Notes under the pieces: generated by a model | What the model was told of the DNA's origin: nothing | What the model saw: only the letters and a program-made list of their open reading frames with translations | Database searches by the model: none | DNA from: a virus | Taxonomy: Duplodnaviria > Heunggongvirae > Uroviricota > Caudoviricetes | IMG/VR virus record: IMGVR_UViG_2563366982_000005 | Reading direction: 5' to 3' (one strand) | Length of the DNA: 25,963 bases | In this document: piece by piece, positions 5,899-24,843 of the stretch | Layout of the letters: the number at the start of each line of letters is the position of its first letter | How positions within the stretch are numbered: position 1 is the stretch's first letter | Translations under genes and position numbers: made by a program

Positions 5899-5899
5899 A

Positions 5900-9128: not shown

Positions 9129-9161
9129 ATCTGAGAAACGATTTTGTCGGAGGAAATTTTA

Positions 9162-9932: not shown

Positions 9933-9947
9933 TTGCCGGAGGCGCTT

Positions 9948-10340
9948 ATGGCAAAAGTATTTACACCAGAAGAGCGGGAAGAAGTGAAGGCGCGAATTGT
10001 GGAATTCGTGCGCCTGAGCGGACGAGAAACTTTTCGACAACTGGCAGATAAAACGGGTGTCAGTAAGACCGCTATTCGTCGTTTATCTGGTGCGCTTGCG
10101 GCCAGTGGTGATGTCTGGCTCTCTGGTTGCGGGGTATTTCCATCAGAGCAGGCGTATCGCGTATGGCGTAAGACACCGGAGAAGGCTGCTGACCCGACAC
10201 TGATTCGAAAGTTACCTGACGGAGAAATACGTCGTTACAACAGACGGCAGAACATAATTTGTCGTGAGTGCCGCCAGAGCGAAGTTATGCAGCGTGTGCT
10301 GGCGTTCTATCGGGGAAACTTTCAGGAGGTGATGGAGTGA
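9948..10340 (+). CDS. Hypothetical phage protein
   Basis: ATG 9948 preceded by GGAGG (track ORF begins at TTG 9933); HTH-like segment (FRQLADKTGVSKTAIRRL). Confidence 0.5.
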   Translation: MAKVFTPEEREEVKARIVEFVRLSGRETFRQLADKTGVSKTAIRRLSGALAASGDVWLSGCGVFPSEQAYRVWRKTPEKAADPTLIRKLPDGEIRRYNRRQNIICRECRQSEVMQRVLAFYRGNFQEVME

Positions 10341-10633
10341 GGGTCAGAGTTTATATTGCCGGTCCAATGACGGGATATGAAAATTTCAACCGTGAGGCGT
10401 TTCACAAGGCGGAAGAGGAACTGAAACGGGAAGGGCATACCGTCTTAAACCCGGCAGTACTTCCGGACGGGCTGACACAGCCGCACTACATGGATATTTG
10501 CATGGCAATGATTCGTTGTGTGGATGCGATTTACATGCTGAATGGCTGGCAGCGGTCAGCGGGCGCTAAGGCAGAGCTGGCACTGGCGGAGAAACTGGGG
10601 CATGCAGTGATTTATCAGGAGGTGGCTCAATGA
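10337..10633 (+). CDS. DUF4406-like (nucleoside 2-deoxyribosyltransferase-like fold) protein
   Basis: GTG 10337 overlapping the upstream stop, AGGAGG SD; YIAGPMTG N-terminal motif and small size fit the DUF4406 family as I recall it; low-certainty family call. Confidence 0.45.
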   Translation: MRVRVYIAGPMTGYENFNREAFHKAEEELKREGHTVLNPAVLPDGLTQPHYMDICMAMIRCVDAIYMLNGWQRSAGAKAELALAEKLGHAVIYQEVAQ

Positions 10634-11091
10634 GAGAGGTTAACTATGAGGCGCTTCGTGAGGCAGCACAAAACTATCAGTCGACGCTGGCGTGGTATCA
10701 GGCTATCCCGGACAGCCCAAATGCTGAACGGGATTGTGATGCGGCTCTTGCTGCGTTTAAGCGTCACATCCGTCATCGGGAAGCGGATATTATCGCTGAT
10801 TTGCTGGATGGACTGGAAGAAGCAAAATCACAACTCAACGAGCAGCGTGAGTATTACGAAGGCGTTATCTCTGATGGGAGCAAGCGTATTGCTGAACTGG
10901 AAGCGCGGGAAGTTCAATTACCGACTCGCTACGACCTTCGATATGGACACCCGATAAATGCAGATGAGCGACATGTCATGATACCTAAAGAAAATGGCAG
11001 TTGGCTTTACCTGATTGACTTAGAACACGCATTACGCGTCGCTGGCATTCGCATCAAAGGAGAGGAGCATGGAAATAAAACCAGAGGATGA
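10630..11091 (+). CDS. Hypothetical phage protein (possibly Ead/Ea22-like)
   Basis: 153-aa ORF, ATGA overlap with upstream gene; coiled-coil-like middle; family call tentative. Confidence 0.45.
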   Translation: MREVNYEALREAAQNYQSTLAWYQAIPDSPNAERDCDAALAAFKRHIRHREADIIADLLDGLEEAKSQLNEQREYYEGVISDGSKRIAELEAREVQLPTRYDLRYGHPINADERHVMIPKENGSWLYLIDLEHALRVAGIRIKGEEHGNKTRG

Positions 11092-11368
11092 GTTAAGCAA
11101 TATCGTTTTATTTCCGGTAAAAGAGGATGACCCTCGTAATCAGGTTAATTTTCTTTATGAGCCATCGGAAAGACCATATTGTCATCACGCCTCTGTTCGG
11201 GTTGACGAAAAAGAGCGTCAGGTCCGCTGTAAAATCTGCGGTGCAGTTGTGGAGCCGTTTGACTGGATGCTCTCTGTGGCGAAAAGAGAAACCAGACTGG
11301 CAGATGATGTAAGGCTATTGCGCCAGGAGGAACAGGAAAGGCGGAAAAATATAGAAAAGTTAATTTAG
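11069..11368 (+). CDS. Hypothetical protein with Cys/His cluster
   Basis: 99-aa ORF with GGAGAGGAG SD; CHH...CKICG putative metal-binding residues. Confidence 0.45.
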   Translation: MEIKPEDELSNIVLFPVKEDDPRNQVNFLYEPSERPYCHHASVRVDEKERQVRCKICGAVVEPFDWMLSVAKRETRLADDVRLLRQEEQERRKNIEKLI

Positions 11369-11520
11369 ATTGAGCGTAACGCGAAAGCGCGGATATGCAG
11401 GGCGACAAAATCCAGAACTGAATAATTAAATTTAGCACTGTAAATAAAATCAAATCCTTAACCGGAGGGATTTCTGCACCCTCAGAACATCAGGAGGCCG
11501 TCCGAAAGGGCGGTAGTGAA

Positions 11521-11703
11521 ATGCGAAAATTCAAAATAATTATTGAAACGGGAATAGCCGGTGGAGATTTCGAGGATGAATTCGAAGTGGATGATGATGC
11601 AACACCAGATGAAATACAGGATGAAGCTAAAGATATTTTCTTTAACTACTGCAATTACTCATACCACGAAATAAAAGACGAAGAGGAAGAACAAAATGGC
11701 TGA
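11521..11703 (+). CDS. Small acidic hypothetical protein (60 aa)
   Basis: AGGAGG-containing leader; highly acidic (D/E-rich) product. Confidence 0.4.
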   Translation: MRKFKIIIETGIAGGDFEDEFEVDDDATPDEIQDEAKDIFFNYCNYSYHEIKDEEEEQNG

Positions 11704-11872
11704 TTTTGGTTCAACTAAATATAACGCCAGTTTTGAAGAATGGCATGAACTGTTAATGGATTATGCAGAGTTACGCGGTGGAAGTGCCGCTGATGCTGAA
11801 GCATGGCGTGATGATTATGAAGCAGGGAAAACACCGGTCGAAGCATATTGTGATGAGTGGGGCGATGAATGA
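11696..11872 (+). CDS. Small hypothetical protein (58 aa)
   Basis: Hand-translated MADFGSTKYNASFEEWHELLMDYAELRGGSAADAEAWRDDYEAGKTPVEAYCDEWGDE; overlaps neighbours by ATGA-type junctions; below track cutoff. Confidence 0.35.
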   Translation: MADFGSTKYNASFEEWHELLMDYAELRGGSAADAEAWRDDYEAGKTPVEAYCDEWGDE

Positions 11873-12228
11873 GCGAGATTAATTATCAGGAAGGGCATGA
11901 AAAGGTAGGGCAGGCAAAACCAGTGGCATGGCGATATCGCTACGTGAAAAAAGGCGTTACAGACTTTCAGGGGAAGCAGTGGGTTGGTGACTGGAAATAT
12001 GTCCCGACAAAAGAGGATTGTAACGACAGACCAAACTATGAAATTCAGGCGTTATTCACGGCCCCGCCAGCTTCGGTGACATCAGAAGGACTGGTTAAAG
12101 CTGTGCGCTTTTATGAACAGGTACGGCGTGAGGATCCGCCAGTTGAAACCGGAGCATGGAAAGACGCTATTGACTGGGTACTCAAGGAGGCCTGCCTGGT
12201 TGTAAACACGGGCATCAAAGGAGGCTGA
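11869..12228 (+). CDS. Hypothetical phage protein (119 aa)
   Basis: Track ORF, ATGA overlap with upstream small ORF. Confidence 0.5.
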   Translation: MSEINYQEGHEKVGQAKPVAWRYRYVKKGVTDFQGKQWVGDWKYVPTKEDCNDRPNYEIQALFTAPPASVTSEGLVKAVRFYEQVRREDPPVETGAWKDAIDWVLKEACLVVNTGIKGG

Positions 12229-12444
12229 ATGGGTATTGCCGCAAGTTATACCATGCATCTCTATTGTGATTGCCGCCAGTGTACGGATGGCAAATATCAG
12301 TCGCCAGATTTTGGTGAGTATATCGGTACGTCATGGGCTGGCTGTGCAAAAGAGGCACGTAAAGATGGGTGGCGAATAAGTGCCGACAAAACGCGTGCTT
12401 TTGCGCCAGGGCATAAAATTTTGAGGAGCAACAAAGGAGAGTGA
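12229..12444 (+). CDS. Hypothetical Cys-rich small protein (71 aa)
   Basis: Track ORF; CDC..QC motif. Confidence 0.4.
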   Translation: MGIAASYTMHLYCDCRQCTDGKYQSPDFGEYIGTSWAGCAKEARKDGWRISADKTRAFAPGHKILRSNKGE

Positions 12445-12445
12445 T

Positions 12446-12664
12446 GTGCCTACATTATTCAGAAAAGAATATCCGCGAAAAAGTAGAGCGACAGAATTTT
12501 TGTTTCTCATTCTGTTTATCGTGTTGATGATACCGATATCCCCGTTAATTCTGGTATGGGGAATCGGAAAAATAATTGAGCCAGTTATTGAATTGTATAA
12601 CGACGTGGTATGGGCTCCGTTCAACACACTGCACAATAAAATTAATCCGTATAAGGAAAACTGA
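12446..12664 (+). CDS. Small hydrophobic membrane protein (72 aa)
   Basis: Track ORF starting at GTG; central hydrophobic stretch FLFLILFIVLMIPISPLILVWGIG. Confidence 0.4.
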   Translation: MPTLFRKEYPRKSRATEFLFLILFIVLMIPISPLILVWGIGKIIEPVIELYNDVVWAPFNTLHNKINPYKEN

Positions 12665-12665
12665 T

Positions 12666-12852
12666 ATGGCAACTTTGACAAAAAAAGAACAGGCATGGTT
12701 GAACGAATTACAGGACGTTCTTGATCGCTGTCCATCACCGAAAAAAATTGGTTTTTACACCATTGGCGATAAAAGCATTTACCTGTATGACCTGCGCCGC
12801 ATGGATGAAATCATGGAGGCTCTTGATAATCGTTCGTCAATGGATTGGTGTG
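12666..12852 (+). pseudogene. Phage small gene truncated/fused by IS911 insertion
   Basis: ORF MATLTKKEQAWLNELQDVLDRCPSPKK... begins at 12666 and runs straight into the IS911 inverted repeat at 12853; downstream reading continues into IS sequence (track ORF 12576-13007). Confidence 0.4.
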
Positions 12853-12882
12853 TGAAGTGGTCAACAAAAACTGGCCACCGAG

Positions 12883-14030
<1,148 letters not shown>

Positions 14031-14254
14031 TATGGCACCTGTGTTGTTCTGAGGTGAGCATATCACCTCTGTTCAGGTGGCCAAATTCAGTAAACCACTT
14101 CAGTCTCAGGCATGAACACCAAAAGGCAGATAGAGAAAAGCCCCAGTTAACATTACGCGTCCGGCAAGACGCTTAACATTAATCTGAGGCCATATCTATG
14201 CTCTACACACGTAGGTTAGCCTCTTACGTGCCGAAAGGCAAGGAGAAGCAGGCT

Positions 14255-14575: not shown

Positions 14576-15226
14576 ATGAATGAAAATCAGTTAGCTCCTT
14601 GTTGGGAATTTCAACCTTATCTTGCTGAAAACTATGTTCGCCACTTGTTGGCGGAGATCGCTAACGTACTTGAGCAGCTGTACTATCATAAGCACGCATT
14701 AGACAGCAACTGGTCTGAAGGTGTAAGGGCTTATGATTGGGTCAGAAATCATCTTATTCAAAATGAAGATGCAATTCCTGGCCTTGAGATGATTTCCAAG
14801 GGGTTGGACTATGTAGTTGCTTTAAATAAAGTTCCGCTACAATTTACCAAAGATTGCATTAATAACCCCAAAAAGAAACATCGTCTGCGTCGAAATAAAG
14901 TAGAGTATGAGCAGCTCTCATTGTTTGGTGATGTTGAGGCTGAGCAAGATATTACATGGCGAGTCATAGCTGAGCCTTTTTTATCCGAAGAGGGCGATGG
15001 TGAATTAGAGTCCACACTGCCTCGTTGGGAGGTAGCTCTTGTTGGATTTAATACTTATGGTGCTCAGATTAGTATAGTTTCTCATCAATCTACAGCATCG
15101 ATGCCGCTTATGCCTCTTGATTATAACACACTCCCTGACGAAGCGGAGATTAATAAGGTGCCTCTTCGTCGGCGTACGAAGGATAAAGATTTGGATGTGA
15201 GCAGTGATGGAACATCAGGTGAATAA
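14576..15226 (+). CDS. Hypothetical protein (216 aa), first gene of accessory cassette; contains QLSLF motif
   Basis: Track ORF; no recognised domain; basic patch NPKKKHRLRRNK followed by EQLSLFGD (residues 113-117 match the beta-clamp binding pentapeptide consensus QL[SD]LF); 3' end overlaps gene B start. Confidence 0.55.
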   Translation: MNENQLAPCWEFQPYLAENYVRHLLAEIANVLEQLYYHKHALDSNWSEGVRAYDWVRNHLIQNEDAIPGLEMISKGLDYVVALNKVPLQFTKDCINNPKKKHRLRRNKVEYEQLSLFGDVEAEQDITWRVIAEPFLSEEGDGELESTLPRWEVALVGFNTYGAQISIVSHQSTASMPLMPLDYNTLPDEAEINKVPLRRRTKDKDLDVSSDGTSGE

Positions 15227-16310
15227 CTTCACTGAGTATCGGGGTGATAAGCTCAAACTAGCGAGAATGGCTGTTGGGCTTTCTTGTGAAGAGTTAGCCG
15301 AAAAAATTGGCAAGACAAAGCAATTCGTTAGCAAACTGGAGAAGGGGTGCAGGCCATCGGAGCAATGTCTTGAGTTAATATCTTCAGCGCTTATGATTAA
15401 GTCCAGTTTTCTTTTTACTGAACGAAAATACGCTCTGGAAAGTGATGTCTGCCATTTTCGGAGTAAGAAGTCCAGGACTCAAACGCTGACTAATAGTGTA
15501 TTGGCCAGGGCTGAGATTCTTAATATTATAATTTCTGCTGTTGAAGGTGAAATCGAATTTCCTGACGTTAACATACCGGAGCACCCAGGGGCTGAATTAC
15601 TTACTCCGAATGATATTGAGCGAGTGGCAGAAGATTGTCGCCGTGCCTGGAATTTAGGTCTTGGCCCTATATCATCAATGGTTAAATTGGCGGAGAGTTT
15701 AGGGGTAATCGTTGCGCATGTTACGGGAGTCGATGATCGTGTTGATGCTTTTACTGTTCACAATAACAGGCCTGTTATCATCAGGAACAATGTTAAAAAA
15801 AGCATATGTAGATTTCGCTCTGATTTAGGTCATGAATTAGGGCATTTAGTAATGCATGAGGGCATAACGACAGGTGATAAACTTACGGAATCACAAGCCG
15901 ATCACTTTTCGAGCGCCTTATTAGTTCCCAGGTTATCTTTCATTAAAGAATTTCCACGAATACGAGGTAAGCAATTCGACTGGAATGCTCTGGTTGAATT
16001 TAAACTTAGATGGAAAATCAGCCTTAAAATGTGTATTTATCGAGCCAGCGCATTAGGCTTATTGACCCAGGAACAGGCAAGAACTGGCTATATGCATCTT
16101 AATTCCAGAGGGTATACGAGAGTTGAACCTGGTGATGAACTTTTGCGCCCTGAAGAACCCGGCATGCTGGCCGAGGCGATTGAAATGCTGGATGATGCAA
16201 CCTGGCTAAGAATTCTTATGAAAACTGGCTTGAGCCAAGATTTAATTCGTGAGTTGTTCTCCATCAACAGACCTATTACAAATCCAAGAAATATTTTCCA
16301 GATTGTTTGA
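15207..16310 (+). CDS. XRE-family HTH fused to ImmA/IrrE-type (M78/COG2856) zinc metallopeptidase
   Basis: N-terminal HTH (LKLARMAVGLSCEELAEKIGKTKQFVSKLEKG); HEXXH motif (GHELGHLVMHEG) about 200 aa in; ATG 15207 (track ORF at GTG 15204) overlaps upstream gene end. Confidence 0.75.
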   Translation: MEHQVNNFTEYRGDKLKLARMAVGLSCEELAEKIGKTKQFVSKLEKGCRPSEQCLELISSALMIKSSFLFTERKYALESDVCHFRSKKSRTQTLTNSVLARAEILNIIISAVEGEIEFPDVNIPEHPGAELLTPNDIERVAEDCRRAWNLGLGPISSMVKLAESLGVIVAHVTGVDDRVDAFTVHNNRPVIIRNNVKKSICRFRSDLGHELGHLVMHEGITTGDKLTESQADHFSSALLVPRLSFIKEFPRIRGKQFDWNALVEFKLRWKISLKMCIYRASALGLLTQEQARTGYMHLNSRGYTRVEPGDELLRPEEPGMLAEAIEMLDDATWLRILMKTGLSQDLIRELFSINRPITNPRNIFQIV

Positions 16311-18033: not shown

Positions 18034-18408
18034 ATGCTCATAGATTTGGTTTTACCTTACCCGCCGACGGTGAACACTTACTGGCGACGCCGTGGCAGCA
18101 CATATTTTATCTCGGAGGAGGGAAAGCGTTATCGCCGGGCTGTGGCGCTTATTGTTCGCCAGCAGCGGCTGAAATTAAGCCTGTCCGGAAGGCTGGCGAT
18201 AAAGGTGATTGCAGAGCCACCGGATAAGCGTCGTCGCGACCTGGACAATATCCTGAAAGCACCGCTGGATGCGCTGACGCATGCGGGAGTGTTAATGGAC
18301 GATGAGCAGTTTGATGAAATCAATATCGTTCGTGGTCAGCCAGTATCTGGTGGACGTATGGGGGTGAAGATTTACCCCATAATGCATGAAGAGCAGGTCA
18401 AAAAATGA
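18034..18408 (+). CDS. rusA: Holliday junction resolvase RusA
   Basis: 124-aa ORF with AGAGG SD; RRRDLDN motif and overall pattern as in RusA; immediately upstream of Q, typical lambdoid position. Confidence 0.8.
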   Translation: MLIDLVLPYPPTVNTYWRRRGSTYFISEEGKRYRRAVALIVRQQRLKLSLSGRLAIKVIAEPPDKRRRDLDNILKAPLDALTHAGVLMDDEQFDEINIVRGQPVSGGRMGVKIYPIMHEEQVKK

Positions 18409-19226
18409 AACTGGAAGATTTACCGAAATACTACTCCCCAAAATCCCCTGGCCTGACCGATGCATCGGCCTCAACGTCAAAAGATGCGCTGAGTATCACT
18501 GATGTGATGGCCGCGCAGGGCATGACACAGAATCGGGCTGAGATGGGGTTTTCTGCGTTCCTGGGGAAAATGGGCATCAGTATGAATGACAGGGCGCGGG
18601 CAACAGAATTACTGGCAGATTATGCACTCAGTCGGTGCGATCGTGTGGCGGCGTTGAGAAAACTTCCGGCAGAAATAAAACCGGTAGTGATGCGCATTAT
18701 GGCTTCGTATGCGTTTGAAGATTATGCCCGTAGCGCGGCGAGCAAAAAACAGTGCCCCTGCTGTCACGGAAAAAAATTTATTGAAAGCGAGGTTTTTACA
18801 AACAAGATCCAGTATCCGGATGGTAAGCCACCAGTGTGGGCAAAGTGCACAAAAGGCGTGTATCCGTCTTACTGGGAAGAATGGAAAAAAGTCAGGGAGG
18901 TGGTAAAAGTTGCCTGTCCGGAGTGTGGCGGAAAGGGTGAGGTTTCCACCGCCTGTAAGGATTGCCGTGGGCGTGGTGTCGCCATTCATCGTGAAGAGTC
19001 GGTAAAACGTGGTATGCCTGTTATCAGAGATTGCCAGCGTTGTGGTGGTCGTGGCTGTGAAAGGCTGCCATCAACGGAGGCATTTAATGCCATATGCAAA
19101 GTGACGAGTGCTATCACGCTTGATACGTGGAAAAAATCAGTGAAACGCTTTTACGATACGTTGGTGGTTCGGTTTGACATTGAAGAGGCATGGGCGGAGC
19201 GGCAGTTAAAGAGGGTAACGCGATAG
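18405..19226 (+). CDS. Late-gene antitermination protein Q
   Basis: 273-aa ORF overlapping rusA stop (ATGA); multiple CxxC zinc-finger pairs (CPCCHG, CPECGG, CKDCRG, CQRCGG); followed by promoter-terminator (PR'/tR'-like) region. Confidence 0.75.
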   Translation: MKLEDLPKYYSPKSPGLTDASASTSKDALSITDVMAAQGMTQNRAEMGFSAFLGKMGISMNDRARATELLADYALSRCDRVAALRKLPAEIKPVVMRIMASYAFEDYARSAASKKQCPCCHGKKFIESEVFTNKIQYPDGKPPVWAKCTKGVYPSYWEEWKKVREVVKVACPECGGKGEVSTACKDCRGRGVAIHREESVKRGMPVIRDCQRCGGRGCERLPSTEAFNAICKVTSAITLDTWKKSVKRFYDTLVVRFDIEEAWAERQLKRVTR

Positions 19227-19308
19227 TGTTGTTGATTTTTCCCGAATCTGTGGTAAATTTGCTCTAACGATGGGCGTTTTATGCCTGACGTTAGAAGATT
19301 TTTTACAC

Positions 19309-19330
19309 CCCGCCGCCTGGCGGGTTTTTT
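19309..19330 (+). terminator. tR'-like intrinsic terminator downstream of Q
   Basis: CCCGCC-GCCT-GGCGGG followed by TTTTTT, about 80 bp downstream of Q stop; a late promoter (PR'/qut) is expected in 19227-19308 but not confidently resolved. Confidence 0.55.
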
Positions 19331-19452
19331 ATGACTGAAATCGCGTCAGTACAGTAAACGCGCTGGTGGCGGTGAATACCTGTCTTTCAGCTTGCTGGCT
19401 TTTTCGACAAGAGTTATTGGTGTGTCACGTTAACCGGAAAAGGGAAAAAGAC

Positions 19453-19650
19453 ATGCTAAAACAGCAGGATATGACAGAAACCGCCAGAGTGGTGTTTAAT
19501 GAATTAAGCGTTACCGAACCGGCGACAGTCGGGGAGATAGCGCAGAATACTTACCTTTCACGCGAACGCTGCCAGTTAATACTGACCCAGCTGGTTATGG
19601 CGGGTCTGGCAGACTATCAGTTTGGTTGTTACAGACGCCTTCAGTCCTGA
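19453..19650 (+). CDS. Small hypothetical protein (65 aa)
   Basis: Internal ATG with AAAGGGAAAAAG leader inside the 94-aa track ORF; wHTH-like character (VGEIAQNTYLSRERCQLIL). Confidence 0.4.
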   Translation: MLKQQDMTETARVVFNELSVTEPATVGEIAQNTYLSRERCQLILTQLVMAGLADYQFGCYRRLQS

Positions 19651-19800
19651 AGGCTTTTTTATTTGTGGTAAATGGGCGGCTGGTGGGTGTTAGGGGCACT
19701 CACCAGCCATCTGCTCATGCGTCTGGATCACAAGCAAACCTCAGGCCCACTGCTTTGCGCAAAAGCAGAATGAGCCTATCAGAGACAGGTTTAATGATCC

Positions 19801-20859
19801 ATGCTTAATACTGTAAAAATATCCAGTTGTGAGTTAATCAACGCCGACTGCCTGGAATTTATCCGGTCGTTACCCGAAAATTCTGTTGACCTGATAGTCA
19901 CGGACCCGCCGTACTTTAAAGTGAAGCCTGAGGGCTGGGATAACCAGTGGAAGGGCGACGATGATTACCTGAAGTGGCTGGACCAGTGTCTGGCGCAGTT
20001 CTGGCGGGTGCTGAAACCTGCCGGAAGTCTTTACCTGTTCTGTGGTCATCGCCTGGCATCTGATATCGAAATCATGATGCGTGAACGCTTCAGTGTGCTG
20101 AACCATATTATCTGGGCAAAGCCGTCCGGACGCTGGAACGGGTGCAACAAGGAAAGCCTGCGGGCGTATTTCCCCGCCACAGAGCGCATTCTGTTCGCGG
20201 AACATTATCAGGGGCCGTATCGTCCGAAAGATGCCGGGTATGAGGCGAAGGGCAGGGCACTGAAACAGCATGTGATGGCCCCGCTGATTGCTTACTTTCG
20301 TGATGCGCGCGCTGCCCTGGGGATAACGGCAAAACAGATAGTGGATGCCACAGGAAAGAAAAACATGGTGTCGCACTGGTTCAGTGCCAGTCAGTGGCAG
20401 CTGCCGAACGAAAGTGATTATCTGAAATTACAGGCGCTGTTTGCCCGGGTGGCAGAAGAGAAGCATCAGCGGGGTGAACTGGAAAAGCCCCACCACCAGC
20501 TGCTGGAGACGTATACTTCACTGAACCGGCAGTATGCGGAACTGCAGAGTGAATATAAGCATCTGCGGCGGTATTTTGGCGTGACGGCGCAGGTGCCGTA
20601 CACGGATGTGTGGACGCATAAACCGGTGCAGTACTATCCCGGGAAACATCCGTGCGAAAAACCGGCAGAAATGCTGCAGCAGATAATCAGTGCGAGCAGT
20701 CGTCCGGGTGACCTGGTTGCAGATTTCTTCATGGGGTCGGGTTCGACAGTCAAAGCCGCGATGGCGCTGGGGCGTCGTGCTACAGGCGTTGAGCTGGAGA
20801 CTGAACGTTTTGAACAGACGGTCAGGGAAGTTCAGGATTTAGCCAGTCAGAACGGATGA
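19801..20859 (+). CDS. Orphan DNA methyltransferase (amino-MTase, DPPY motif IV before FxGSGST motif I)
   Basis: 352 aa; VTDPPYF near N-terminus and FFMGSGST near C-terminus, the circularly permuted order of beta-class N6-adenine/N4-cytosine MTases; no adjacent restriction endonuclease gene seen. Confidence 0.8.
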   Translation: MLNTVKISSCELINADCLEFIRSLPENSVDLIVTDPPYFKVKPEGWDNQWKGDDDYLKWLDQCLAQFWRVLKPAGSLYLFCGHRLASDIEIMMRERFSVLNHIIWAKPSGRWNGCNKESLRAYFPATERILFAEHYQGPYRPKDAGYEAKGRALKQHVMAPLIAYFRDARAALGITAKQIVDATGKKNMVSHWFSASQWQLPNESDYLKLQALFARVAEEKHQRGELEKPHHQLLETYTSLNRQYAELQSEYKHLRRYFGVTAQVPYTDVWTHKPVQYYPGKHPCEKPAEMLQQIISASSRPGDLVADFFMGSGSTVKAAMALGRRATGVELETERFEQTVREVQDLASQNG

Positions 20860-20899
20860 TATTGCAGGATTAGTTACGTACCGTTATTATCCTGCGCCC

Positions 20900-20975
20900 G
20901 GCCCTTTAGCTCAGTGGTGAGAGCGAGCGACTCATAATCGCCAGGTCGCTGGTTCAAATCCAGCAAGGGCCACCA
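20900..20975 (+). tRNA. tRNA with CAU anticodon (Ile2-lysidine or Met type)
   Basis: 76 nt, acceptor stem GGCCCTT/AAGGGCC, anticodon loop CTCATAA, T-loop GGTTCAAATCC, 3' CCA encoded. Confidence 0.8.
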
Positions 20976-20984
20976 TATCACATA

Positions 20985-21061
20985 CCGCCATTAGCTCATC
21001 GGGATAGAGCGCCAGCCTTCGAAGCTGGTTGCGCGGGGTTCGAGTCCTCGATGGCGGTCCA
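20985..21061 (+). tRNA. tRNA-Arg (anticodon UCG)
   Basis: 77 nt, acceptor CCGCCAT/ATGGCGG, anticodon loop CTTCGAA, T-loop GGTTCGAGTCC, CCA encoded. Confidence 0.75.
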
Positions 21062-21075
21062 TTTATCGGCATTCT

Positions 21076-21152
21076 GCGTTGTTAGCTCAGCCGGACAGAG
21101 CAATTGCCTTCTAAGCAATCGGTCACTGGTTCGAATCCAGTACAACGCGCCA
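21076..21152 (+). tRNA. tRNA-Arg (anticodon UCU)
   Basis: 77 nt, acceptor GCGTTGT/ACAACGC, anticodon loop CTTCTAA, T-loop GGTTCGAATCC, CCA encoded. Confidence 0.8.
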
Positions 21153-21322
21153 GACTTATTTTTCCCGGCTCGCTTTTGCGGGCCTTTTTTGTATCCGCGC
21201 CACGCCCGGCGCATATCAACCACAGAGCCTTTCGGGGGTGAGCTTACGGAGTGGTCAGTGTGACTTTCTCTGTGGGCAGATCGCTCCCGGGCGTTGGCTC
21301 ACCCACCCAAAGGAACGTCACA

Positions 21323-21754
21323 ATGCTTGGAATCTTCAAAAAGAAAACCCGCAGAGCGTCTGCGGAAATTAAAAAGTTTGAAAAACGCGATCTGGCACAG
21401 GCAGTGATTAACGCTGCATACCTGGTGGCTTATGCCGATGGTGAATGTGAGGCTTCCGAGAAAGCGAAGATCGAACAGGTATTACGTAACCAGCCCACCT
21501 TGTCCGCGTTTACGTCAGAAATTAATGCGATTAGCGCAACCATTATCGGTCAGCTGGATACGAACTTTAAAATTGGTCGTCGTGCGGCGTTACGTGAGAT
21601 CGAGGATGTGAAACACGATACGCGTGAAGCGGAAGACGTGCTGGATGTGGCGGTGGCCATTGCCGAAGCAGACGGCGAAATAGAGCCGGAAGAGCGCAAG
21701 GTGCTGGAAGAGATTGCCGGTGTTCTGGGCCTTCGTCTGGAGAATCATCTGTGA
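21323..21754 (+). CDS. TerB-like (tellurite-resistance TerB family fold) protein
   Basis: 143-aa frame from internal ATG with AAGGAA SD inside the 167-aa track ORF; repeated A-x-x-x-V/A-A-x-A-D-G-E motifs (AAYLVAYADGECEASE; VAVAIAEADGEIEPEE) typical of TerB-like helical domains. Confidence 0.55.
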   Translation: MLGIFKKKTRRASAEIKKFEKRDLAQAVINAAYLVAYADGECEASEKAKIEQVLRNQPTLSAFTSEINAISATIIGQLDTNFKIGRRAALREIEDVKHDTREAEDVLDVAVAIAEADGEIEPEERKVLEEIAGVLGLRLENHL

Positions 21755-21762
21755 CGGTAAAA

Positions 21763-21915
21763 ATGCGTCTGGCTGTGGTTGCGCTCCTGCTGTTTCTGGT
21801 GGTGATGGTGGACTTCAGCAGCCGGATAATGTCAGTGCTGGCTGACGGTGTGCTGGTGGCGGGTGTGGTGGTTGTTGCTTTCCCGTTGCTGAAAAAGAAA
21901 GCATCAGGCGATTAG
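21763..21915 (+). CDS. Small hydrophobic peptide (50 aa), possible membrane protein
   Basis: Hand-translated MRLAVVALLLFLVVMVDFSSRIMSVLADGVLVAGVVVVAFPLLKKKASGD; two hydrophobic segments, C-terminal lysines; starts 9 nt after TerB-like stop; below track cutoff. Confidence 0.35.
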   Translation: MRLAVVALLLFLVVMVDFSSRIMSVLADGVLVAGVVVVAFPLLKKKASGD

Positions 21916-21950
21916 CAGGGTATCAGTTACCCGTTGAAATTTTTAAATAC

Positions 21951-22178
21951 CTCACAATTCAGGCGGTTGACTGTTGTCTGGTTTGCGGGGAGTTTGTTAA
22001 AAGAAACTGGCATGGTGAATCCCCCTGTGCGGAGGGGCAATCAGCAACTGGTGTTTTGTCACCGACCCTTATCCTTTCTGTGCGGGTTCAGGTGCTGATA
22101 CTGAACTCACCGGGAGGCACCCGGCACCATGCAATGGCACATAGTGCCACTCTCCAGCCCCTCTCCGGAGGGGCTTTT
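21951..22178 (+). repeat. Structured repeat element, copy 1 (conserved hairpins plus terminator)
   Basis: Shares with copy 2 the blocks CTCACAATTCAG..TTGAC, TTTGTTAAAA, GCATGGTGAATCCCCCTGNGCGGAGGGGC, CTGAACTCACCGGGAGGCACCCGGCACCATG and AGCCCCTCTCCGGAGGGGCTTT; ends in a GC hairpin followed by a T-run. Confidence 0.6.
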
Positions 22179-22369
22179 CTGTGCCGGATACATCACAGTT
22201 TCTGGAACCTTAGGTACTACAGTATCAGTCAGGGTGCTATATTTTCAGATGTGATGAAAGCCTGTCAGCAGGCAGGGCGTATCGGAAATGACCCAGTAGA
22301 GAAAACGTTGACTCAGATACCGGTGCTGAGTTACCGGGAAACCGGCATCACATGACCGCTATCCTTCCA

Positions 22370-22396
22370 GGCCCATCCGCTCCGGTGGGCCTTTTT
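22370..22396 (+). terminator. Intrinsic terminator-like hairpin between the repeat copies
   Basis: GGCCCA-(loop)-TGGGCC followed by TTTTT. Confidence 0.45.
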
Positions 22397-22433
22397 ACTG
22401 CAGAAAACAGGTTCCCCGTTAAATGCTATGTTG

Positions 22434-22665
22434 CTCACAATTCAGTAAGTTGACAGTTGCCTGTCAGACTGGGCATTTGTTAAAAAAATTTCGCATGGTG
22501 AATCCCCCTGAGCGGAGGGGCGACTGGTGACGGTATAATCTCTGATTATCAAAACGAGAATGACGCGGGTTTAGTGGCACCGGGCTGAACTCACCGGGAG
22601 GCACCCGGCACCATGTGCATGATGATACAGATACGCGGCTTTAGCCCCTCTCCGGAGGGGCTTTC
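22434..22665 (+). repeat. Structured repeat element, copy 2
   Basis: Same conserved blocks as copy 1 in the same order, with divergent spacers; terminal hairpin GCCCCTC-TCCG-GAGGGGC plus T-rich tail. Confidence 0.6.
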
Positions 22666-22880
22666 TTGTGGGCAAAAAAAGCCCGAGTGGGTTCGGGCAA
22701 CAGCATGAGATATACATTTTTATAATCGAATGGATTTTAACCAGAATTCATAAGGCTGCGCAACTGCGCGGTCTTTTTCGAATTGCGGGCTGTCGTCTCT
22801 CTTCTGCCATTGTCCTGTAACTTCCGGACTTCAGCCCGCTCCTTATTTTACTCACAATATTATCCCGGCCGGGAGGATTC

Positions 22881-24422
22881 ATGGCATTTAAACACTATGA
22901 CGTGGTCAGGGCGGCATCGCCGTCAGACCTTGCGAAACGACTGACACAAAAACTGAAGGAGGGGTGGCAGCCATTTGGCAGTCCGGTGGCCATCACGCCT
23001 TATACCCTGATGCAGGCCATTGCGGCGGAAGGTGATGTCACCACACCTGTGGTGGTGAAGCCGTCGGATGGAGAAGGCGCAGTTATCAGCACCACCAGCA
23101 ACCCGGAGTATTACTTTGTTGTTGCCCTGGCCGGGCAGTCAAACGGTATGGCGTATGGTGAAGGGCTTCCGCTGCCGGAGACATATGACCGTCCGGACCC
23201 GCGTATTAAACAGCTGGCGCGTCGCAGCACTGTCACGCCGGGTGGTGCGTCCTGTAACTACAATGACATTATTCCTGCGGACCACTGCCTGCATGATGTT
23301 CAGGATTTGAGTAAGTTTTCACACCCGAAAGCCAGCGCAGCTCAGTATGGATGCGTGGGGCAGGGATTACATATCGCGAAGAAATTGTTGCCGTTTATTC
23401 CGGCGAATGCCGGTATTCTTCTGGTTCCGTGCTGCCGTGGTGGTTCTGCATTTTTGGCGGGCGATGAAGGTACCTTCAGCGAATCCACCGGCGCAAGCGA
23501 GACCTCGGCACGCTGGGGTGTAGATAAGCCACTGTACAAGGACCTGCTTACCCGTACTCAGGCCGCACTGAAGGCCAACCCTAAAAATATTCTGCTTGCA
23601 GTGGTCTGGATGCAGGGCGAGTTTGATTTGAAACAGGGTGCATACGCCACTCAGCCGGGGCTGTTTGATTCCATGGTGGAAAAATATCGTTCTGACCTGT
23701 CGGAATTCGGAGGTCAGTGTCTCGGGGGCTCTCCGTCATCGGTTCCCTGGATTTGTGGCGACACGACCTACTACTGGAAGCAGACTTATTCTTCGCAATA
23801 CGATGCGGTGTATGGTGCATACAAGACGAAATCCGCAAAAAAAATCTTCTTTGTGCCGTTTATGACGGATGAAAACGGGCGAAATGTGGGTACCAACGAG
23901 CCGTCAGAAGATCCGGATGTTGCGGATATTGGGTATTACGGAGCCGGTGGTCGAACGGACGCCAAAACCTGGACGACGGCTGACCGTAAAACGCATTTTG
24001 GATCATGGGCACGTCGTGGGATTATTTCCGACCGTCTGGCAACGGCGATTCTTGTGCATGCCGGGAGAAACGCTGAATTCATTACCGGAAAACAGCCTGA
24101 TACGGTGAAGCCCACCGGACCTTCCGGTGAAGGTACGGAGAGAGAGCCGGAAGCCCCGGTCAGTAACCGAACCCTGATGAGTCTGCTGGCGTCCGGCGAA
24201 GACCTGGCATCACAGGGCTGGCGCTATTATCACAAACCGGCGAGCGGAGACAATGTTAACAAAAACATTGCTGAAGCGGTGGTCAGTGATGCGGGGGCTA
24301 CGGGAGGTAAGGCCCTGCAACTGAATAAACCGGAAAACCACATCTGGTTTCTGGAGCATGATGCAGCCGGACAGGGAGTGGAGTTACTGAAGAAGGGGGG
24401 GACGTGTGAGCGTACGGTTTAA
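22881..24422 (+). CDS. NanS-p-like esterase (DUF1737 N-terminus plus sialate O-acetylesterase/SASA-type domain)
   Basis: 513 aa; GGAGG SD; GQSN motif (VALAGQSNGMAYGEG) characteristic of SASA/SGNH-like carbohydrate esterases; position upstream of lysis genes as for nanS-p in Stx phages (recalled). Confidence 0.7.
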   Translation: MAFKHYDVVRAASPSDLAKRLTQKLKEGWQPFGSPVAITPYTLMQAIAAEGDVTTPVVVKPSDGEGAVISTTSNPEYYFVVALAGQSNGMAYGEGLPLPETYDRPDPRIKQLARRSTVTPGGASCNYNDIIPADHCLHDVQDLSKFSHPKASAAQYGCVGQGLHIAKKLLPFIPANAGILLVPCCRGGSAFLAGDEGTFSESTGASETSARWGVDKPLYKDLLTRTQAALKANPKNILLAVVWMQGEFDLKQGAYATQPGLFDSMVEKYRSDLSEFGGQCLGGSPSSVPWICGDTTYYWKQTYSSQYDAVYGAYKTKSAKKIFFVPFMTDENGRNVGTNEPSEDPDVADIGYYGAGGRTDAKTWTTADRKTHFGSWARRGIISDRLATAILVHAGRNAEFITGKQPDTVKPTGPSGEGTEREPEAPVSNRTLMSLLASGEDLASQGWRYYHKPASGDNVNKNIAEAVVSDAGATGGKALQLNKPENHIWFLEHDAAGQGVELLKKGGTCERTV

Positions 24423-24843
24423 GTTGCCGGGTTCACTGGTGCCGAATCAGTTTGCCCTGGGCATTTACTGGCAGTTGTCGTCCCTGCCGGAGGGAGTGAC
24501 GCTGGCAGAGGAAGGCAACGACATGCTGATGTCCTTCTTCCTGCAGACGGATGCGACGAACCTGAACGCGATGCACCACAAGAAGCCGAATGCGAAGCTG
24601 GATACGTTCGGGGTCTTTGATAACGGATGGCACACACTGGCTTTTGAGTTTGCCGGAAACAACAGCATTCAGGTGACGCCGGTACTGGATGAGAAACGGG
24701 GGACGCCGTTCACACTGGTGAAATCTCCGGCATCAGGGGCGGCGGACAAACTGCAACTGACAGGCATATCAAAGGCGGCGACATATACGCTGCTGATTGA
24801 CAGTGTGAAGGTGGAAGTGAACAACGCGGATGCCGCGGCATGA
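24406..24843 (+). CDS. Probable C-terminal portion of NanS-p-like protein as a separate frame
   Basis: 145-aa ORF starting GTG and overlapping the 3' end of the esterase ORF by 17 nt in another frame; combined length (~658 aa) is near the size I recall for full-length NanS-p. Confidence 0.45.
   Translation: MSVRFKLPGSLVPNQFALGIYWQLSSLPEGVTLAEEGNDMLMSFFLQTDATNLNAMHHKKPNAKLDTFGVFDNGWHTLAFEFAGNNSIQVTPVLDEKRGTPFTLVKSPASGAADKLQLTGISKAATYTLLIDSVKVEVNNADAAA

What the first reader, a model, noticed from the sequence alone, without database searches (positions are those of the whole stretch)
19227..22880. Stx-phage-like late cargo locus without stx: methyltransferase, three tRNAs, TerB-like gene and small membrane peptide
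Seen in sequence: downstream of Q and a tR'-like terminator lie an orphan amino-MTase, three tRNAs (CAU, UCG, UCU anticodons; the last two decode rare Arg codons), a TerB-like protein, a 50-aa hydrophobic peptide and the repeat elements, followed by a NanS-p-like esterase and the holin. Established knowledge (recalled): Stx phages have Q, tRNAs, stxAB, nanS-p, lysis genes in this order. Here the toxin slot holds different cargo, so this is a moron hotspot worth characterising.
Basis: partly seen in the sequence, partly recalled or inferred. Interest (0 to 1): 0.55.

Follow-up and report, generated by a model that had tools for sequence, protein, structure and literature searches.

The report
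Stx-less lambdoid prophage late-operon cargo
This is the cargo stretch behind the late promoter of an ordinary lambda-like E. coli prophage, laid out like a Shiga-toxin phage but carrying the common two-gene tciA-tciB cassette where the toxin genes would be; every part is already catalogued, so it is real but ordinary.

Summary
Window 19227-22880 is 100% identical to a prophage of E. coli ABU 83972 and about 80 other sequenced strains.

After a lambda-family Q gene it contains:
- a lambda-like pR'/pause region and the tR' terminator;
- a 65-aa ORF;
- an orphan DNA methyltransferase, about 95% identical to the non-specific adenine methylase M.EcoGII;
- ileZ (CAU, a tRNA-Ile2, not tRNA-Met), argN and argO;
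- a terminator;
- tciA (TerB domain) overlapping tciB (54-aa DUF3927 membrane peptide);
- two full STnc100/PasD-family sRNA genes plus one degenerate copy;
- an antisense AsxR-like anti-sRNA;
- a frameshifted nanS-p, then the holin.

Homology to Stx2a phages runs at 96% from tR' to just past the post-argO terminator and resumes at the second STnc100. So tciAB sits exactly in the stx2AB slot.

Among 111 viral contigs sharing that terminator, the slot holds stx2 (27), tciAB (29) or nothing before nanS-p (about 29-35).

The "moron insertion site" 3' of pR', its sRNAs, the methylase family, the tRNAs and stx-less relatives such as phage JLK-2012 are all published or annotated.

The only open question is what tciAB does. 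The pair also occurs in P1, P2/186-like and jumbo phages. Interest is low.

The parts
18405..19226 (+). Late antiterminator Q, lambda-Q family, 273 aa, with a Zn-ribbon-rich insertion of about 66 aa
   Evidence: PF03589 E=2e-49. phrog_127 'anti-termination protein Q-like'. 31% identity to lambda Q, E=1e-37.
19232..19276 (+). pR'-like late promoter (-35 TTGATT 19232-19237, 16-nt spacer, extended -10 TGgTAAATT 19251-19259) and lambda-like initial transcribed/pause region TGCTCTAACGATGGG
   Evidence: Read from the sequence. The alignment to lambda pR' conserves GGTAAATTTG...AACGATGGG. It falls below the threshold of the generic promoter scan (8 of 12 matches), so the call rests on the lambda homology.
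19309..19332 (+). tR' intrinsic terminator, which ends a short pR' RNA of about 66 nt. Homology to Stx2 phages begins here.
   Evidence: Terminator scan. Fold of 19266-19332: -21.9 kcal/mol, z=-2.45. The blastn breakpoint falls at 19309.
19453..19650 (+). 65-aa ORF of unknown function, weakly winged-helix-like, followed by terminator 19637-19654+T6
   Evidence: phrog_331 E=1e-37. Weak TrmB hit, E=0.0024, below cut-off. Annotated WP_000917768.1. Terminator.
19801..20859 (+). Orphan beta-class N6-adenine DNA methyltransferase of the M.EcoGI/GII (non-specific) family
   Evidence: PF01555 E=5.8e-44. 348/352 identical to the phage 1720a-02 MTase. 329/348 identical to the M.EcoGII sequence printed in the supplement of PMC11551740. 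DPPY and FxGxG motifs are visible.
20900..20975 (+). tRNA with anticodon CAU = ileZ (tRNA-Ile2, reads AUA after lysidine modification)
   Evidence: ARAGORN. Rfam 72.5 bits. RefSeq annotation tRNA-Ile/ileZ. C4-G69 and C5-G68 present.
20985..21061 (+). tRNA-Arg (UCG) = argN
21076..21152 (+). tRNA-Arg (UCU) = argO
21167..21190 (+). Intrinsic terminator after the tRNA block. It is the conserved left-hand junction of the cargo slot.
   Evidence: Terminator scan. The sequence is shared by the window, Stx2a_WGPS2, PPyecE_EH1910 and JLK-2012 behind different upstream modules; the stx and tci versions diverge from about 21203. The exact 24-mer was found in at least 120 viral contigs.
21323..21754 (+). 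tciA: 143-aa TerB-domain protein
   Evidence: PF05099 E=2.9e-16. phrog_632. E=4e-8 to solved KP-TerB 2JXU over residues 13-137. Homologous to P1 tciA.
21751..21915 (+). tciB: 54-aa DUF3927 peptide with two hydrophobic segments. Its GTG start overlaps the tciA stop (GTGA).
   Evidence: PF13064 E=4.8e-20. phrog_1470 'TciB-like'. Alignment with the P1, Serratia, E. coli P2-like, JLK-2012 and Pantoea small-ORF (weak, 27% identity) versions. The overlap is read.
21981..22186 (+). STnc100/PasD-family sRNA gene, copy 1 (the type found next to tciAB), ending in a terminator at 22156-22175
   Evidence: Rfam RF02076, 139.7 bits. Its 5' flank and 5' half are nearly identical to JLK-2012. Terminator.
22225..22398 (+). 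Degenerate STnc100-like segment ending in terminator 22369-22392
   Evidence: Rfam 30.1 bits, E=6.6e-4, below cut-off. Terminator. The same 250-nt segment occurs in vB_EcoS-640R1-like phages between a tciB remnant and iraM.
22464..22673 (+). STnc100/PasD-family sRNA gene, copy 2 (the type found after stx2B)
   Evidence: Rfam 165.5 bits. 87% identical to the element 46 nt downstream of stx2B in Stx2a_WGPS2.
22676..22728 (-). AsxR-like anti-sRNA with a conserved 3' terminator half and a variant 5' end
   Evidence: Rfam RF02703, 63.0 bits, exactly at the gathering score. AgvB scores 43.4, below its cut-off. A terminator lies on the minus strand at 22698-22681. AgvB occupies the same position in PPyecE_EH1910.
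22881..24843 (+). nanS-p-like sialate O-acetylesterase (DUF1737 + SASA + DUF6645), split by a +1 frameshift in a G7 run at 24395-24401
   Evidence: Pfam. Intact 653-aa CDS in ABU 83972. Difference list. Sequence.

Best explanation
The region is the accessory ('moron') segment at the start of the late operon of a lambda-like prophage of extraintestinal E. coli. It works as in lambda and the Stx phages.

**Late transcription.** pR' fires constitutively, but in the lysogen transcription stops at tR' and makes only a short RNA. After induction, Q loads onto RNA polymerase at the lambda-like pause site. Polymerase then reads through tR' and the five or more further intrinsic terminators that punctuate the cargo, and reaches nanS-p and the lysis genes. 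All cargo is therefore co-expressed at high level late in lytic growth.

**Methyltransferase.** The M.EcoGII-type enzyme then methylates adenines in progeny DNA without sequence specificity. This protects the DNA from restriction in the next host.

**tRNAs.** ileZ, argN and argO supply decoding capacity for AUA, CGA/CGG and AGA/AGG. The prophage's own genes use these codons 3-10 times more often than core genes do. The tRNAs probably also have their own promoter.

**The toxin slot.** It lies between the post-argO terminator and an STnc100 sRNA gene. Here it holds tciA-tciB, a translationally coupled pair made of a TerB-domain protein and a two-helix membrane peptide.

**tciAB function (low confidence).** I infer that TciB tethers TciA to the inner membrane. 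I also infer that the pair acts during lytic growth on the state of the membrane or envelope, for example by guarding against premature depolarisation or lysis, or against superinfection. I do not think it acts as a lysogenic-conversion factor.

**sRNAs.** The STnc100 copies and the antisense AsxR-like RNA are Hfq-type regulatory RNAs that come with the slot.

**Shown versus inferred.** Shown here: the identity and family of every part, the breakpoints, the population frequencies and the codon bias. Inferred: Q-dependent read-through, methylase specificity and the role of tciAB.
For: **Identity of the parts:**

**Lambda-type Q and pR'/pause region:**

**Terminators:** 13 terminator-like sites against 4.4 +/- 1.8 in shuffles, nearly all on the + strand at module boundaries.

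**Placement in the stx slot:**
- 96% identity to an Stx2a phage from tR' to 21201, resuming at STnc100.
- The junction terminator is shared by four phages with different neighbours.
- In 111 viral contigs with that terminator, the slot holds stx2 (27), tciA(B) (29) or nothing before nanS-p (about 29-35). ileZ-argN-argO lie upstream in about 100 of 112.

**Methylase:** 95% identical to M.EcoGII. The paper that characterises M.EcoGII reports non-specific adenine methylation, silence in the lysogen and toxicity when expressed (PMC5778455).

**Codon usage:** prophage genes against core genes, per 1000 codons:
- ATA 9.5 vs 2.3
- AGA 8.6 vs 0.9
- AGG 6.2 vs 0.7
- CGA 8.2 vs 2.7
- CGG 10.2 vs 2.9

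All differences have p<1e-6.

**tRNA promoter:** dRNA-seq in O157 Sakai found a transcription start between tR' and stx2AB that drives the tRNAs (PMC7547250).

**tciAB as a lytic-cycle pair:**
- The stop and start codons overlap.
- The pair is conserved in P1, JLK-2012, and the early lytic operon of P2/186-like prophages of Serratia and E. coli.
- In a Pantoea lambdoid prophage the TerB gene follows Q and is followed by an overlapping 50-aa ORF.
- Two database clusters are TerB+DUF3927 fusions.
- No promoter-like site lies between the terminator and the tciA ATG.
Against: - No expression data were available here, so Q-dependent read-through is inferred from homology.
- pR' itself scores only 8 of 12 in the generic promoter scan. 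That scan found no more sites than chance (3 vs 2.9), so the absence of a tciAB promoter is weak evidence.
- The methylase differs from M.EcoGII at about 19 positions, some of which may be OCR errors in my source. Its specificity is untested.
- tciA, tciB and nanS-p barely use the rare codons, so the tRNAs do not serve the neighbouring cargo specifically.
- Nothing is known experimentally about TciA/TciB. PADLOC has no model for them.
- The frameshift in nanS-p shows that at least one cargo gene in this copy is decaying.
Confidence: 0.85

Rival explanations
1. The locus is a former Stx2 late region. An Stx2-type phage module lost stx2AB when a tciAB + STnc100 cassette recombined in through the shared terminator and STnc100 flanks. 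The original stx2-type STnc100 and AsxR were left behind as the second copy.
For: - Copy 2 of STnc100 is 87% identical to the copy after stx2B and sits next to an AsxR-like RNA. Copy 1 is of the tciAB-associated type seen in JLK-2012 and PPyecE.
- The left module is 96% identical to Stx2a phages.
- Two STnc100 copies are rare: 4 of 90 contigs. That pattern is what a recent insertion would leave.
Against: - The direction of the exchange cannot be read from the sequences.
- tciAB, stx2 and empty slots are about equally frequent.
- The Q gene, pR' and the rest of the prophage differ from the Stx2 phages compared.
- The spacer between the copies comes from yet another lineage, the iraM-carrying phages. 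General mosaicism explains the pattern equally well.
Confidence: 0.25
2. tciAB is a lysogenic-conversion moron. It is expressed in the lysogen from its own promoter and gives the host resistance to tellurite, pore-forming colicins or superinfecting phage, as the ter operons of IncHI2 plasmids do.
For: - TerB family membership.
- The pair is widespread and well conserved in prophages: 790 of 5426 genomes, with up to 8 places matching this query in one genome.
- Morons often carry their own promoter and terminator (PMC8065619).
Against: - Only TerB is present. No TerC, TerD, TerZ or other ter genes lie nearby.
- The gene follows a strong terminator, with no promoter-like site in the 130 nt before the ATG.
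- In P2/186-like prophages the pair lies inside the early lytic operon, downstream of cox.
- There is no PADLOC defence model hit.
- No experimental report was found.
Confidence: 0.3
3. The segment is inert baggage of a decaying cryptic prophage. Its parts are no longer expressed or selected.
For: - nanS-p is frameshifted in this window.
- One STnc100 copy is degenerate.
- Related prophages show IS insertions and gene remnants at the same place.
Against: - All other ORFs from int to the holin are intact.
- The region is 100% identical in dozens of independent isolates.
- The frameshift is a single base in a G run and is absent in ABU 83972.
- The tRNAs and sRNAs score far above their family thresholds.
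Confidence: 0.12

Closest known systems
Late 'stx region' of Stx2a/2c/2d-converting lambdoid phages (e.g. Stx2a_WGPS2, NC_049941; phage 1720a-02)
   Same: Same order: Q - short ORF - MTase - ileZ/argN/argO - terminator - cargo - STnc100 - nanS-p - DUF1378 - DUF826 - holin. 96% DNA identity from tR' to just past the post-argO terminator. MTase 99% identical to that of 1720a-02.
   Different: No stx2AB; tciAB occupies that position. Q and pR' are lambda-type rather than the short Q of the compared Stx2 phages. There are two and a half STnc100 copies instead of one. nanS-p is only 75% identical and is frameshifted.
Escherichia phage JLK-2012 (from O55:H7 strain DEC5E) and prophage PPyecE_EH1910: stx-less lambdoid phages carrying tciA-tciB
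   Same: tciA-tciB 95% and 87% identical at the DNA level, in the same slot between a terminator and STnc100, upstream of nanS-p and the lysis genes.
   Different: JLK-2012 has tRNA-Asn/Thr/Gly and no MTase upstream. PPyecE has a RelE-like/HTH pair instead of tRNAs and AgvB instead of the AsxR-like RNA.
Phage P1 dmt - tRNA - tciABC - tRNA(CAU) region
   Same: The same association of a DNA methyltransferase, tRNA genes and a TerB-domain gene overlapping a DUF3927 gene. tciA/tciB similarity is detectable at the DNA level (66%).
   Different: Different phage type and transcription unit. P1 has an additional tciC. Its Dmt is a much larger, unrelated bifunctional methylase, and its tRNAs differ.
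Lambda late operon control (Q, pR', qut, 6S RNA, tR')
   Same: The Q protein is homologous (E=1e-37). The -10 TAAATT and the AACGATGGG pause region are conserved.
   Different: Q carries an insertion of about 66 aa. The terminated RNA would be about 66 nt rather than lambda's 194-nt 6S RNA (the lambda figure is from memory). About 3.5 kb of cargo lies between tR' and the lysis region.
Prophage sRNAs STnc100/PasD and anti-sRNAs AsxR/AgvB
   Same: Rfam matches above threshold, at the position described for them: 3' of pR' in the moron site, with AsxR antisense and 3' to the cargo. TerB is reported as a conserved neighbour of the PasA/PasC sRNAs, and PasD is reported to be related to STnc100 (bioRxiv 10.64898/2026.05.13.724894).
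   Different: The AsxR-like RNA differs from the family consensus at several 5' positions, so its target may not be FnrS. STnc100 is duplicated.

Membership tests
Lambdoid late operon (Q antitermination module) | Q-family antiterminator gene immediately upstream | tested here: met
   PF03589 E=2e-49. 31% identity to lambda Q, E=1e-37.
Lambdoid late operon (Q antitermination module) | Late promoter with promoter-proximal pause/qut element, followed by an intrinsic terminator | tested here: met
   TTGATT-16-TGgTAAATT, with AACGATGGG conserved with lambda. Terminator 19309-19324+T6.
Lambdoid late operon (Q antitermination module) | Q-dependent read-through of tR' and downstream terminators | not testable with these tools
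   Needs RNA-seq or reporter assays with and without Q.
Shiga-toxin-converting phage | stxA and stxB genes between the tRNAs and nanS-p | tested here: not met
   tblastn of Stx2A/B against the window: best E=0.36 over 24 aa. The slot is annotated as TerB + DUF3927.
Shiga-toxin-converting phage | Late-region synteny Q - tRNAs - cargo - nanS-p - holin | tested here: met
   PMC7366253.
M.EcoGI/M.EcoGII non-specific adenine methyltransferases | Close sequence identity, and beta-class motif order with DPPY at the N-terminal end and FxGxG at the C-terminal end | tested here: met
   329/348 identical to M.EcoGII. 99% identical to the 1720a-02 MTase, which the M.EcoGII paper cites as very similar. VTDPPY and FFMGSGST motifs are present.
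M.EcoGI/M.EcoGII non-specific adenine methyltransferases | Methylates adenine in any sequence context | not testable with these tools
   Needs the expressed enzyme, or a methylome of induced phage DNA.
tRNA | Cloverleaf fold and conserved positions | tested here: met
   ARAGORN finds 3 genes. Rfam RF00005: 72.5, 56.1 and 70.1 bits against a cut-off of 29.
tRNA-Ile2 (lysidine, reads AUA) | CAU anticodon plus the acceptor-stem pairs C4-G69 and C5-G68, recalled as TilS determinants (Ikeuchi et al. 2005, from memory) | tested here: met
   Sequence check. RefSeq annotates tRNA-Ile/ileZ. ARAGORN and some GenBank records call it Met. The lysidine modification itself cannot be tested here.
TerB family (PF05099) | TerB domain over the full length | tested here: met
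   PF05099, 60.2 bits against a cut-off of 24.4. E=4e-8 to solved TerB 2JXU.
ter (tellurite resistance) operon | TerB together with TerC, TerD/E/Z and TerA | tested here: not met
   No other ter gene appears in the window. The only partner is the DUF3927 peptide.
P1-type tciA-tciB pair | TerB-domain gene followed by an overlapping DUF3927 small membrane-protein gene | tested here: met
   GTGA overlap. PF13064 E=4.8e-20. P1, JLK-2012, Serratia and E. coli P2-like examples.
STnc100 sRNA (RF02076) | Score above the Rfam gathering threshold over the full model | tested here: met
   165.5 and 139.7 bits against 47, model positions 1-206. The third copy scores 30.1 bits and does not meet the threshold.
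AsxR anti-sRNA (RF02703) | Score at or above the gathering threshold, plus a 5' seed able to pair with the FnrS terminator loop | tested here: inconclusive
   63.0 bits, exactly the threshold. The 3' terminator half is identical to the consensus, but the 5' half has several substitutions. Pairing with FnrS was not tested.
NanS-p prophage sialate O-acetylesterase | DUF1737 + SASA esterase + C-terminal DUF6645 domain in one reading frame | tested here: not met
   All three domains are present but split by a +1 frameshift (513 aa + 145 aa). The gene is intact in ABU 83972.
Known anti-phage defence systems (PADLOC) | Match of TciA or TciB to a defence-system model | tested here: not met
   TciA gives only PDC-S48 at E=0.0025 with no matched stretch. 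TciB gives no hit.

The most novel reading that the evidence does not exclude
tciA-tciB is not a tellurite or colicin resistance leftover. It is a dedicated phage module for lytic growth: a TerB-domain protein tethered to the membrane by its two-helix partner.

The pair is carried in the lytic transcription units of lambdoid and P2/186-like phages. It also occurs in P1, and tciA alone in jumbo phages. Its proposed role is to control something general in the infected cell, such as the timing of holin triggering, protection of the membrane potential, or exclusion of competitors.

The post-tRNA terminator and the STnc100 gene would then act as the homologous flanks that let tciAB and stx2AB replace each other.
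Probability: 0.2. Interest if true: 0.5.

Novelty: already known. Interest (0 to 1): 0.18.

Why it matters
It matters little as a discovery. The sequence is annotated in many genomes and each component belongs to a described family.

Its modest value is as a clean example of three points:
- The Shiga-toxin slot is a three-state site (stx2, tciAB or empty), bounded by a conserved terminator and an sRNA gene.
- Uropathogenic and commensal B2 strains carry the same late-region chassis as Stx phages: methylase, rare-codon tRNAs, sRNAs and esterase. This is relevant to how easily toxin cassettes could move.
- tciAB is a very common phage gene pair of unknown function and is a reasonable target for a simple knockout study.

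Tried and rejected
- **PADLOC on all cargo proteins.** Only generic MTase models matched. Nothing matched TciA or TciB, so the pair cannot be assigned to a known defence system.
- **Generic sigma-70 promoter scan of 19100-22950.** It found 3 sites against 2.9 expected, all on the minus strand. It is uninformative and even misses pR'.
- **Promoters for the STnc100 copies.** I looked by eye. The conserved TTGACA/TTGACT upstream of each copy has no usable -10 at the right distance, so the origin of their 5' ends is unresolved.
- **GC content as a moron signature.** All modules lie at 48-56%, near the window mean of 49%. There is no signal.
- **Rfam E-value scan for a known family covering the pR'-tR' short RNA.** No match. 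StxS of Sakai is a different, longer RNA (258 nt, processed to 74 nt).
- **Paper searches.** The search for ileZ/argN/argO returned nothing. The search for DUF3927 returned one incidental mention.
- **M.EcoGII sequence.** The supplement of the M.EcoGII paper is not held. I took the sequence from an OCR'd table in another paper, so a few of the 19 differences may be OCR errors (for example NHHIW against NHIIW).
- **Structure prediction of TciA.** Considered but not run, because the sequence match to the solved TerB structure was already significant.
- **Whether the TerB genes of the jumbo phages are followed by a DUF3927 gene.** Not checked.

Full report
**1. What is there**

The window is a lambdoid prophage. 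Positions 19000-23200 are 100% identical to the chromosome of E. coli ABU 83972 (NC_017631.1, 1184986-1189186) and to many other, mostly human extraintestinal, isolates. One hundred and five of 5426 complete genomes carry at least 80% of this 4.2-kb stretch, and 84 records match at 99% identity or better.

The RefSeq annotation of ABU 83972 lists, in order:
- antitermination protein
- hypothetical protein
- DNA methyltransferase
- tRNA-Ile, tRNA-Arg, tRNA-Arg
- TerB family protein
- DUF3927 family protein
- SASA family esterase
- DUF1378 and DUF826 proteins
- class II holin, YdfR family protein, lysozyme

My own calls agree with this annotation:
- Q is PF03589 (E=2e-49).
- The methylase is PF01555 (E=5.8e-44).
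- TerB is PF05099 (E=2.9e-16).
- The peptide is PF13064/DUF3927 (E=4.8e-20).
- The esterase carries DUF1737 + SASA, and DUF6645 in a second frame.
- ARAGORN finds three tRNAs with anticodons CAU, UCG and UCU.
- Rfam scores them at 72.5, 56.1 and 70.1 bits against a cut-off of 29.

**2. Corrections and additions to the observation**

*The CAU tRNA.* It is the Stx-phage gene ileZ. RefSeq calls it tRNA-Ile in three records. It has C4-G69 and C5-G68, which I recall as the determinants for lysidine synthetase. ARAGORN and some GenBank records label it Met, and so does at least one paper.

*The peptide.* It is 54 aa. Its GTG start overlaps the TerB stop codon (GTGA).

*The 'repeat elements'.* They are two full-length STnc100 sRNA genes (RF02076; 139.7 and 165.5 bits against a cut-off of 47). 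A degenerate third copy lies between them (30.1 bits, E=6.6e-4). Each ends in an intrinsic terminator.

*An antisense sRNA.* Directly after copy 2, on the opposite strand, lies an AsxR-like anti-sRNA. It scores 63.0 bits, exactly the family threshold. Its terminator half is identical to the consensus, and its 5' half differs at several positions.

*The esterase.* It is frameshifted in this window by an extra G in a G run at 24395-24401, relative to ABU 83972.

**3. The control region**

Immediately after the Q stop codon comes TTGATT, then 16 nt, then TGgTAAATT (19232-19259). This is followed by TGCTCTAACGATGGG. An alignment with lambda shows the same -10 hexamer and the same AACGATGGG element that lies in lambda's promoter-proximal pause region.

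The Q protein is a lambda-Q homologue (31% identity, E=1e-37) with an insertion of about 66 aa that is rich in CxxC motifs. A strong terminator lies at 19309-19324 plus T6. It would end a short RNA of about 66 nt.

Homology to Stx2 phages begins exactly at this terminator. This fits the rule that Q and its promoter/qut site travel together, while what lies downstream is exchangeable.

Across 19100-22950 there are 13 terminator-like sites against 4.4 +/- 1.8 in shuffled sequence. Most lie on the + strand at module boundaries: after tR', after the 65-aa ORF, after argO, and after each STnc100 unit. Downstream late genes can only be reached by terminator-resistant, Q-modified polymerase. This last step is inferred from the lambda and Stx paradigm (PMC7547250; PMC8065619). 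It was not measured here.

**4. The methyltransferase**

It is 348/352 identical to the methylase of phage 1720a-02. The paper describing M.EcoGII names that enzyme as a very similar relative (PMC5778455).

It is also 329/348 identical to the M.EcoGII sequence printed in the supplement of PMC11551740. That text was machine-read, so some differences may be artefacts.

M.EcoGII methylates adenine in any sequence context. It is silent in the lysogen and harmful when expressed constitutively. Its discoverers proposed that it is switched on as the prophage excises. The position of the gene directly behind tR' gives that proposal a mechanism.

In viral contigs sharing the downstream terminator, the methylase is present in about half (49 of 112). 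It is absent in the rest, and in 14 of those the 65-aa ORF directly precedes the tRNAs. The methylase is therefore itself an optional insert.

**5. The tRNAs**

The 39 intact prophage genes in the window (6499 codons) use the cognate codons far more often than 36 core genes from a 50-kb region of ABU 83972 (13445 codons). All differences have p<1e-6.

| Codon | Prophage genes (per 1000) | Core genes (per 1000) |
|---|---|---|
| ATA | 9.5 | 2.3 |
| AGA | 8.6 | 0.9 |
| AGG | 6.2 | 0.7 |
| CGA | 8.2 | 2.7 |
| CGG | 10.2 | 2.9 |

This supports the usual view that the tRNAs compensate for the phage's codon usage. The neighbouring cargo (tciA, tciB, nanS-p) hardly uses these codons.

A sequence just upstream of ileZ (TTGCAG, 17 nt, TATTAT, then a GC-rich discriminator; my reading) would fit a promoter. 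dRNA-seq in O157 Sakai detected a transcription start that drives the tRNAs.

**6. The slot**

Against Stx2a phage WGPS2, identity is 96% from 19309 to 21201. In that phage this point is about 43 nt before stx2A. Identity resumes (87%) at 22435-22664, which corresponds to the STnc100 element 46 nt after stx2B.

A four-way alignment shows that the terminator GGCTCGCTTTTGCGGGCC-T6 (21167-21190) is shared by:
- the window and WGPS2, where it follows argO;
- JLK-2012, where it follows tRNA-Gly;
- PPyecE_EH1910, where it follows a RelE-like/HTH pair.

Sequences diverge into a 'stx' version and a 'tci' version a dozen bases later.

On the right side, STnc100 copy 1 and its 5' flank are nearly identical to the copy after tciB in JLK-2012. 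Copy 2 is of the stx2-associated type. The 250-nt spacer between them occurs in another lineage, between a tciB remnant and iraM.

The downstream content of the 111 contigs with at least 300 nt downstream was as follows.

| First element downstream | Contigs |
|---|---|
| stx2A(B) | 27 |
| tciA(B) | 29 |
| nanS-p directly (empty slot) | 29 |
| holin directly | 4 |
| iraM | 3 |
| No reference hit | 19 |

Of the 19 with no reference hit, 14 have less than 1000 nt downstream. At least six are truncated nanS-p, and two are unrelated high-GC contigs.

Upstream, ileZ-argN-argO is present in about 100 of 112 contigs. Among the 90 contigs with at least 1000 nt downstream, 76 have one STnc100 copy within 2.5 kb and only 4 have two.

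The slot is therefore a real exchange point with few alternative contents. The window's only unusual feature is the doubled STnc100.

**7. tciA-tciB**

The pair carries the names of its homologues in phage P1. P1 has dmt - tRNA-Asn - tRNA-Thr - tciA - tciB - tciC - tRNA(CAU).

At 80% coverage or better, the pair is found in 790 of 5426 complete E. coli genomes. Matches to this query occur at up to 8 places per genome.

TciA aligns with the solved TerB structure 2JXU at E=4e-8 over nearly its whole length. No other ter gene is nearby, so this is not a ter operon.

Homologues at 50-90% identity occur across Enterobacterales and in jumbo Erwinia and Salmonella phages. Two database clusters are TerB+DUF3927 fusions.

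The context of three homologues is informative:
- In a Pantoea lambdoid prophage the gene follows Q and is followed by an overlapping 50-aa ORF.
- In P2/186-like prophages of Serratia and E. coli, TerB-DUF3927 lies in the early lytic operon: int, repressor, Cox, DUF4761, Fil (present in the E. coli loci only), TerB, DUF3927..., Dam, GpA.

TciB homologues share two hydrophobic segments and a VDF(T/S)S...D motif.

The pair thus sits in lytic transcription units in both lambdoid and P2/186-like phages. It follows a strong terminator here, and no promoter-like site precedes it (weak evidence).

I therefore favour a role during lytic growth: a membrane-tethered TerB module that affects membrane or envelope state, lysis timing or exclusion. 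I favour this over lysogenic conversion, but it is inference with low confidence. No experimental paper was found. PADLOC has no model for either protein.

**8. Comparison with what is known**

Several points are already published or annotated:
- The gene order is the published 'stx region' order (PMC7366253).
- nanS-p is known in both Stx and non-Stx prophages (PMC8065619).
- Tree et al. [quoted passage not shown]
- A 2026 preprint reports TerB as a conserved neighbour of the prophage sRNAs PasA/PasC and finds PasD related to STnc100.
- JLK-2012 is an annotated stx-less phage with tciA-tciB in this slot.

The finding is therefore a correct reading of a known architecture. The window is not an Stx phage, because the defining genes are absent. 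It shares the late-region chassis of one.

**9. Verdict**

Novelty is rated 'already known' and interest is low.

The residual unknown is the function of tciAB, and whether the terminator and STnc100 flanks actively promote cassette exchange.

Noticed in passing
window 14576-16310 (+): A two-gene RosmerTA-type anti-phage defence/toxin-antitoxin pair. RmrT is 216 aa (PADLOC E=4.6e-25). RmrA is 367 aa with HTH + Peptidase_M78/IrrE domains (PADLOC E=6e-105). The pair is inserted between hokD and the DUF968/rusA/Q genes.
   Followed up: partly
window 24395-24401: The nanS-p-like esterase is split into 513 aa + 145 aa by one extra G in a G7 run, against G6 and an intact 653-aa CDS in ABU 83972. Several RefSeq genomes annotate the second piece separately as a 'DUF6645 domain-containing protein', so the frameshift is probably real and shared within a lineage.
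   Followed up: partly
window 4537-4588 (-): DicF antisense sRNA (Rfam 76.7 bits), next to positions corresponding to dicB/ydfD-type genes in the ABU 83972 annotation. The early region is Qin/Rac-like.
   Followed up: no
window 1-14100 versus NC_017631.1: The window is not ABU 83972 itself. It starts at the integrase gene (ABU locus position 531) and is colinear to 12853. It then differs across about 12853-14100 before matching again. In ABU 83972 the integrase abuts a truncated ompW, which suggests integration at ompW.
   Followed up: no
L007 (phage P1, OP279344.1 63257-70527): P1 shows the same association of modules as the window: DNA methyltransferase (dmt), tRNA genes, tciA-tciB(-tciC), and a CAU-anticodon tRNA. 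JLK-2012 carries tRNA-Asn and tRNA-Thr before tciAB, as P1 does. This hints that tRNA + tciAB blocks move between P1-like and lambdoid phages.
   Followed up: partly
P0004 (197 aa) and P0064 (170 aa): Database proteins in which the TerB and DUF3927 domains are fused in one chain. These are either true fusions or one-base slips at the GTGA overlap. Either way, they are consistent with the two products acting together.
   Followed up: no
L002 6462-6523 (-) and window 22676-22728 (-): The anti-sRNA position right after STnc100 is conserved, but its occupant differs: AgvB (96.5 bits) in PPyecE_EH1910 and an AsxR-like variant here. No match reached the threshold in Stx2a_WGPS2.
   Followed up: partly
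L005 (E. coli MRSN346638) and L009 (phage vB_EcoS-640R1): Close relatives with the same 273-aa Q show a decayed version of the slot. It has only ileZ, a tciB remnant, iraM on the opposite strand (interrupted by ISApl1 in one case) and a truncated nanS-p.
   Followed up: no
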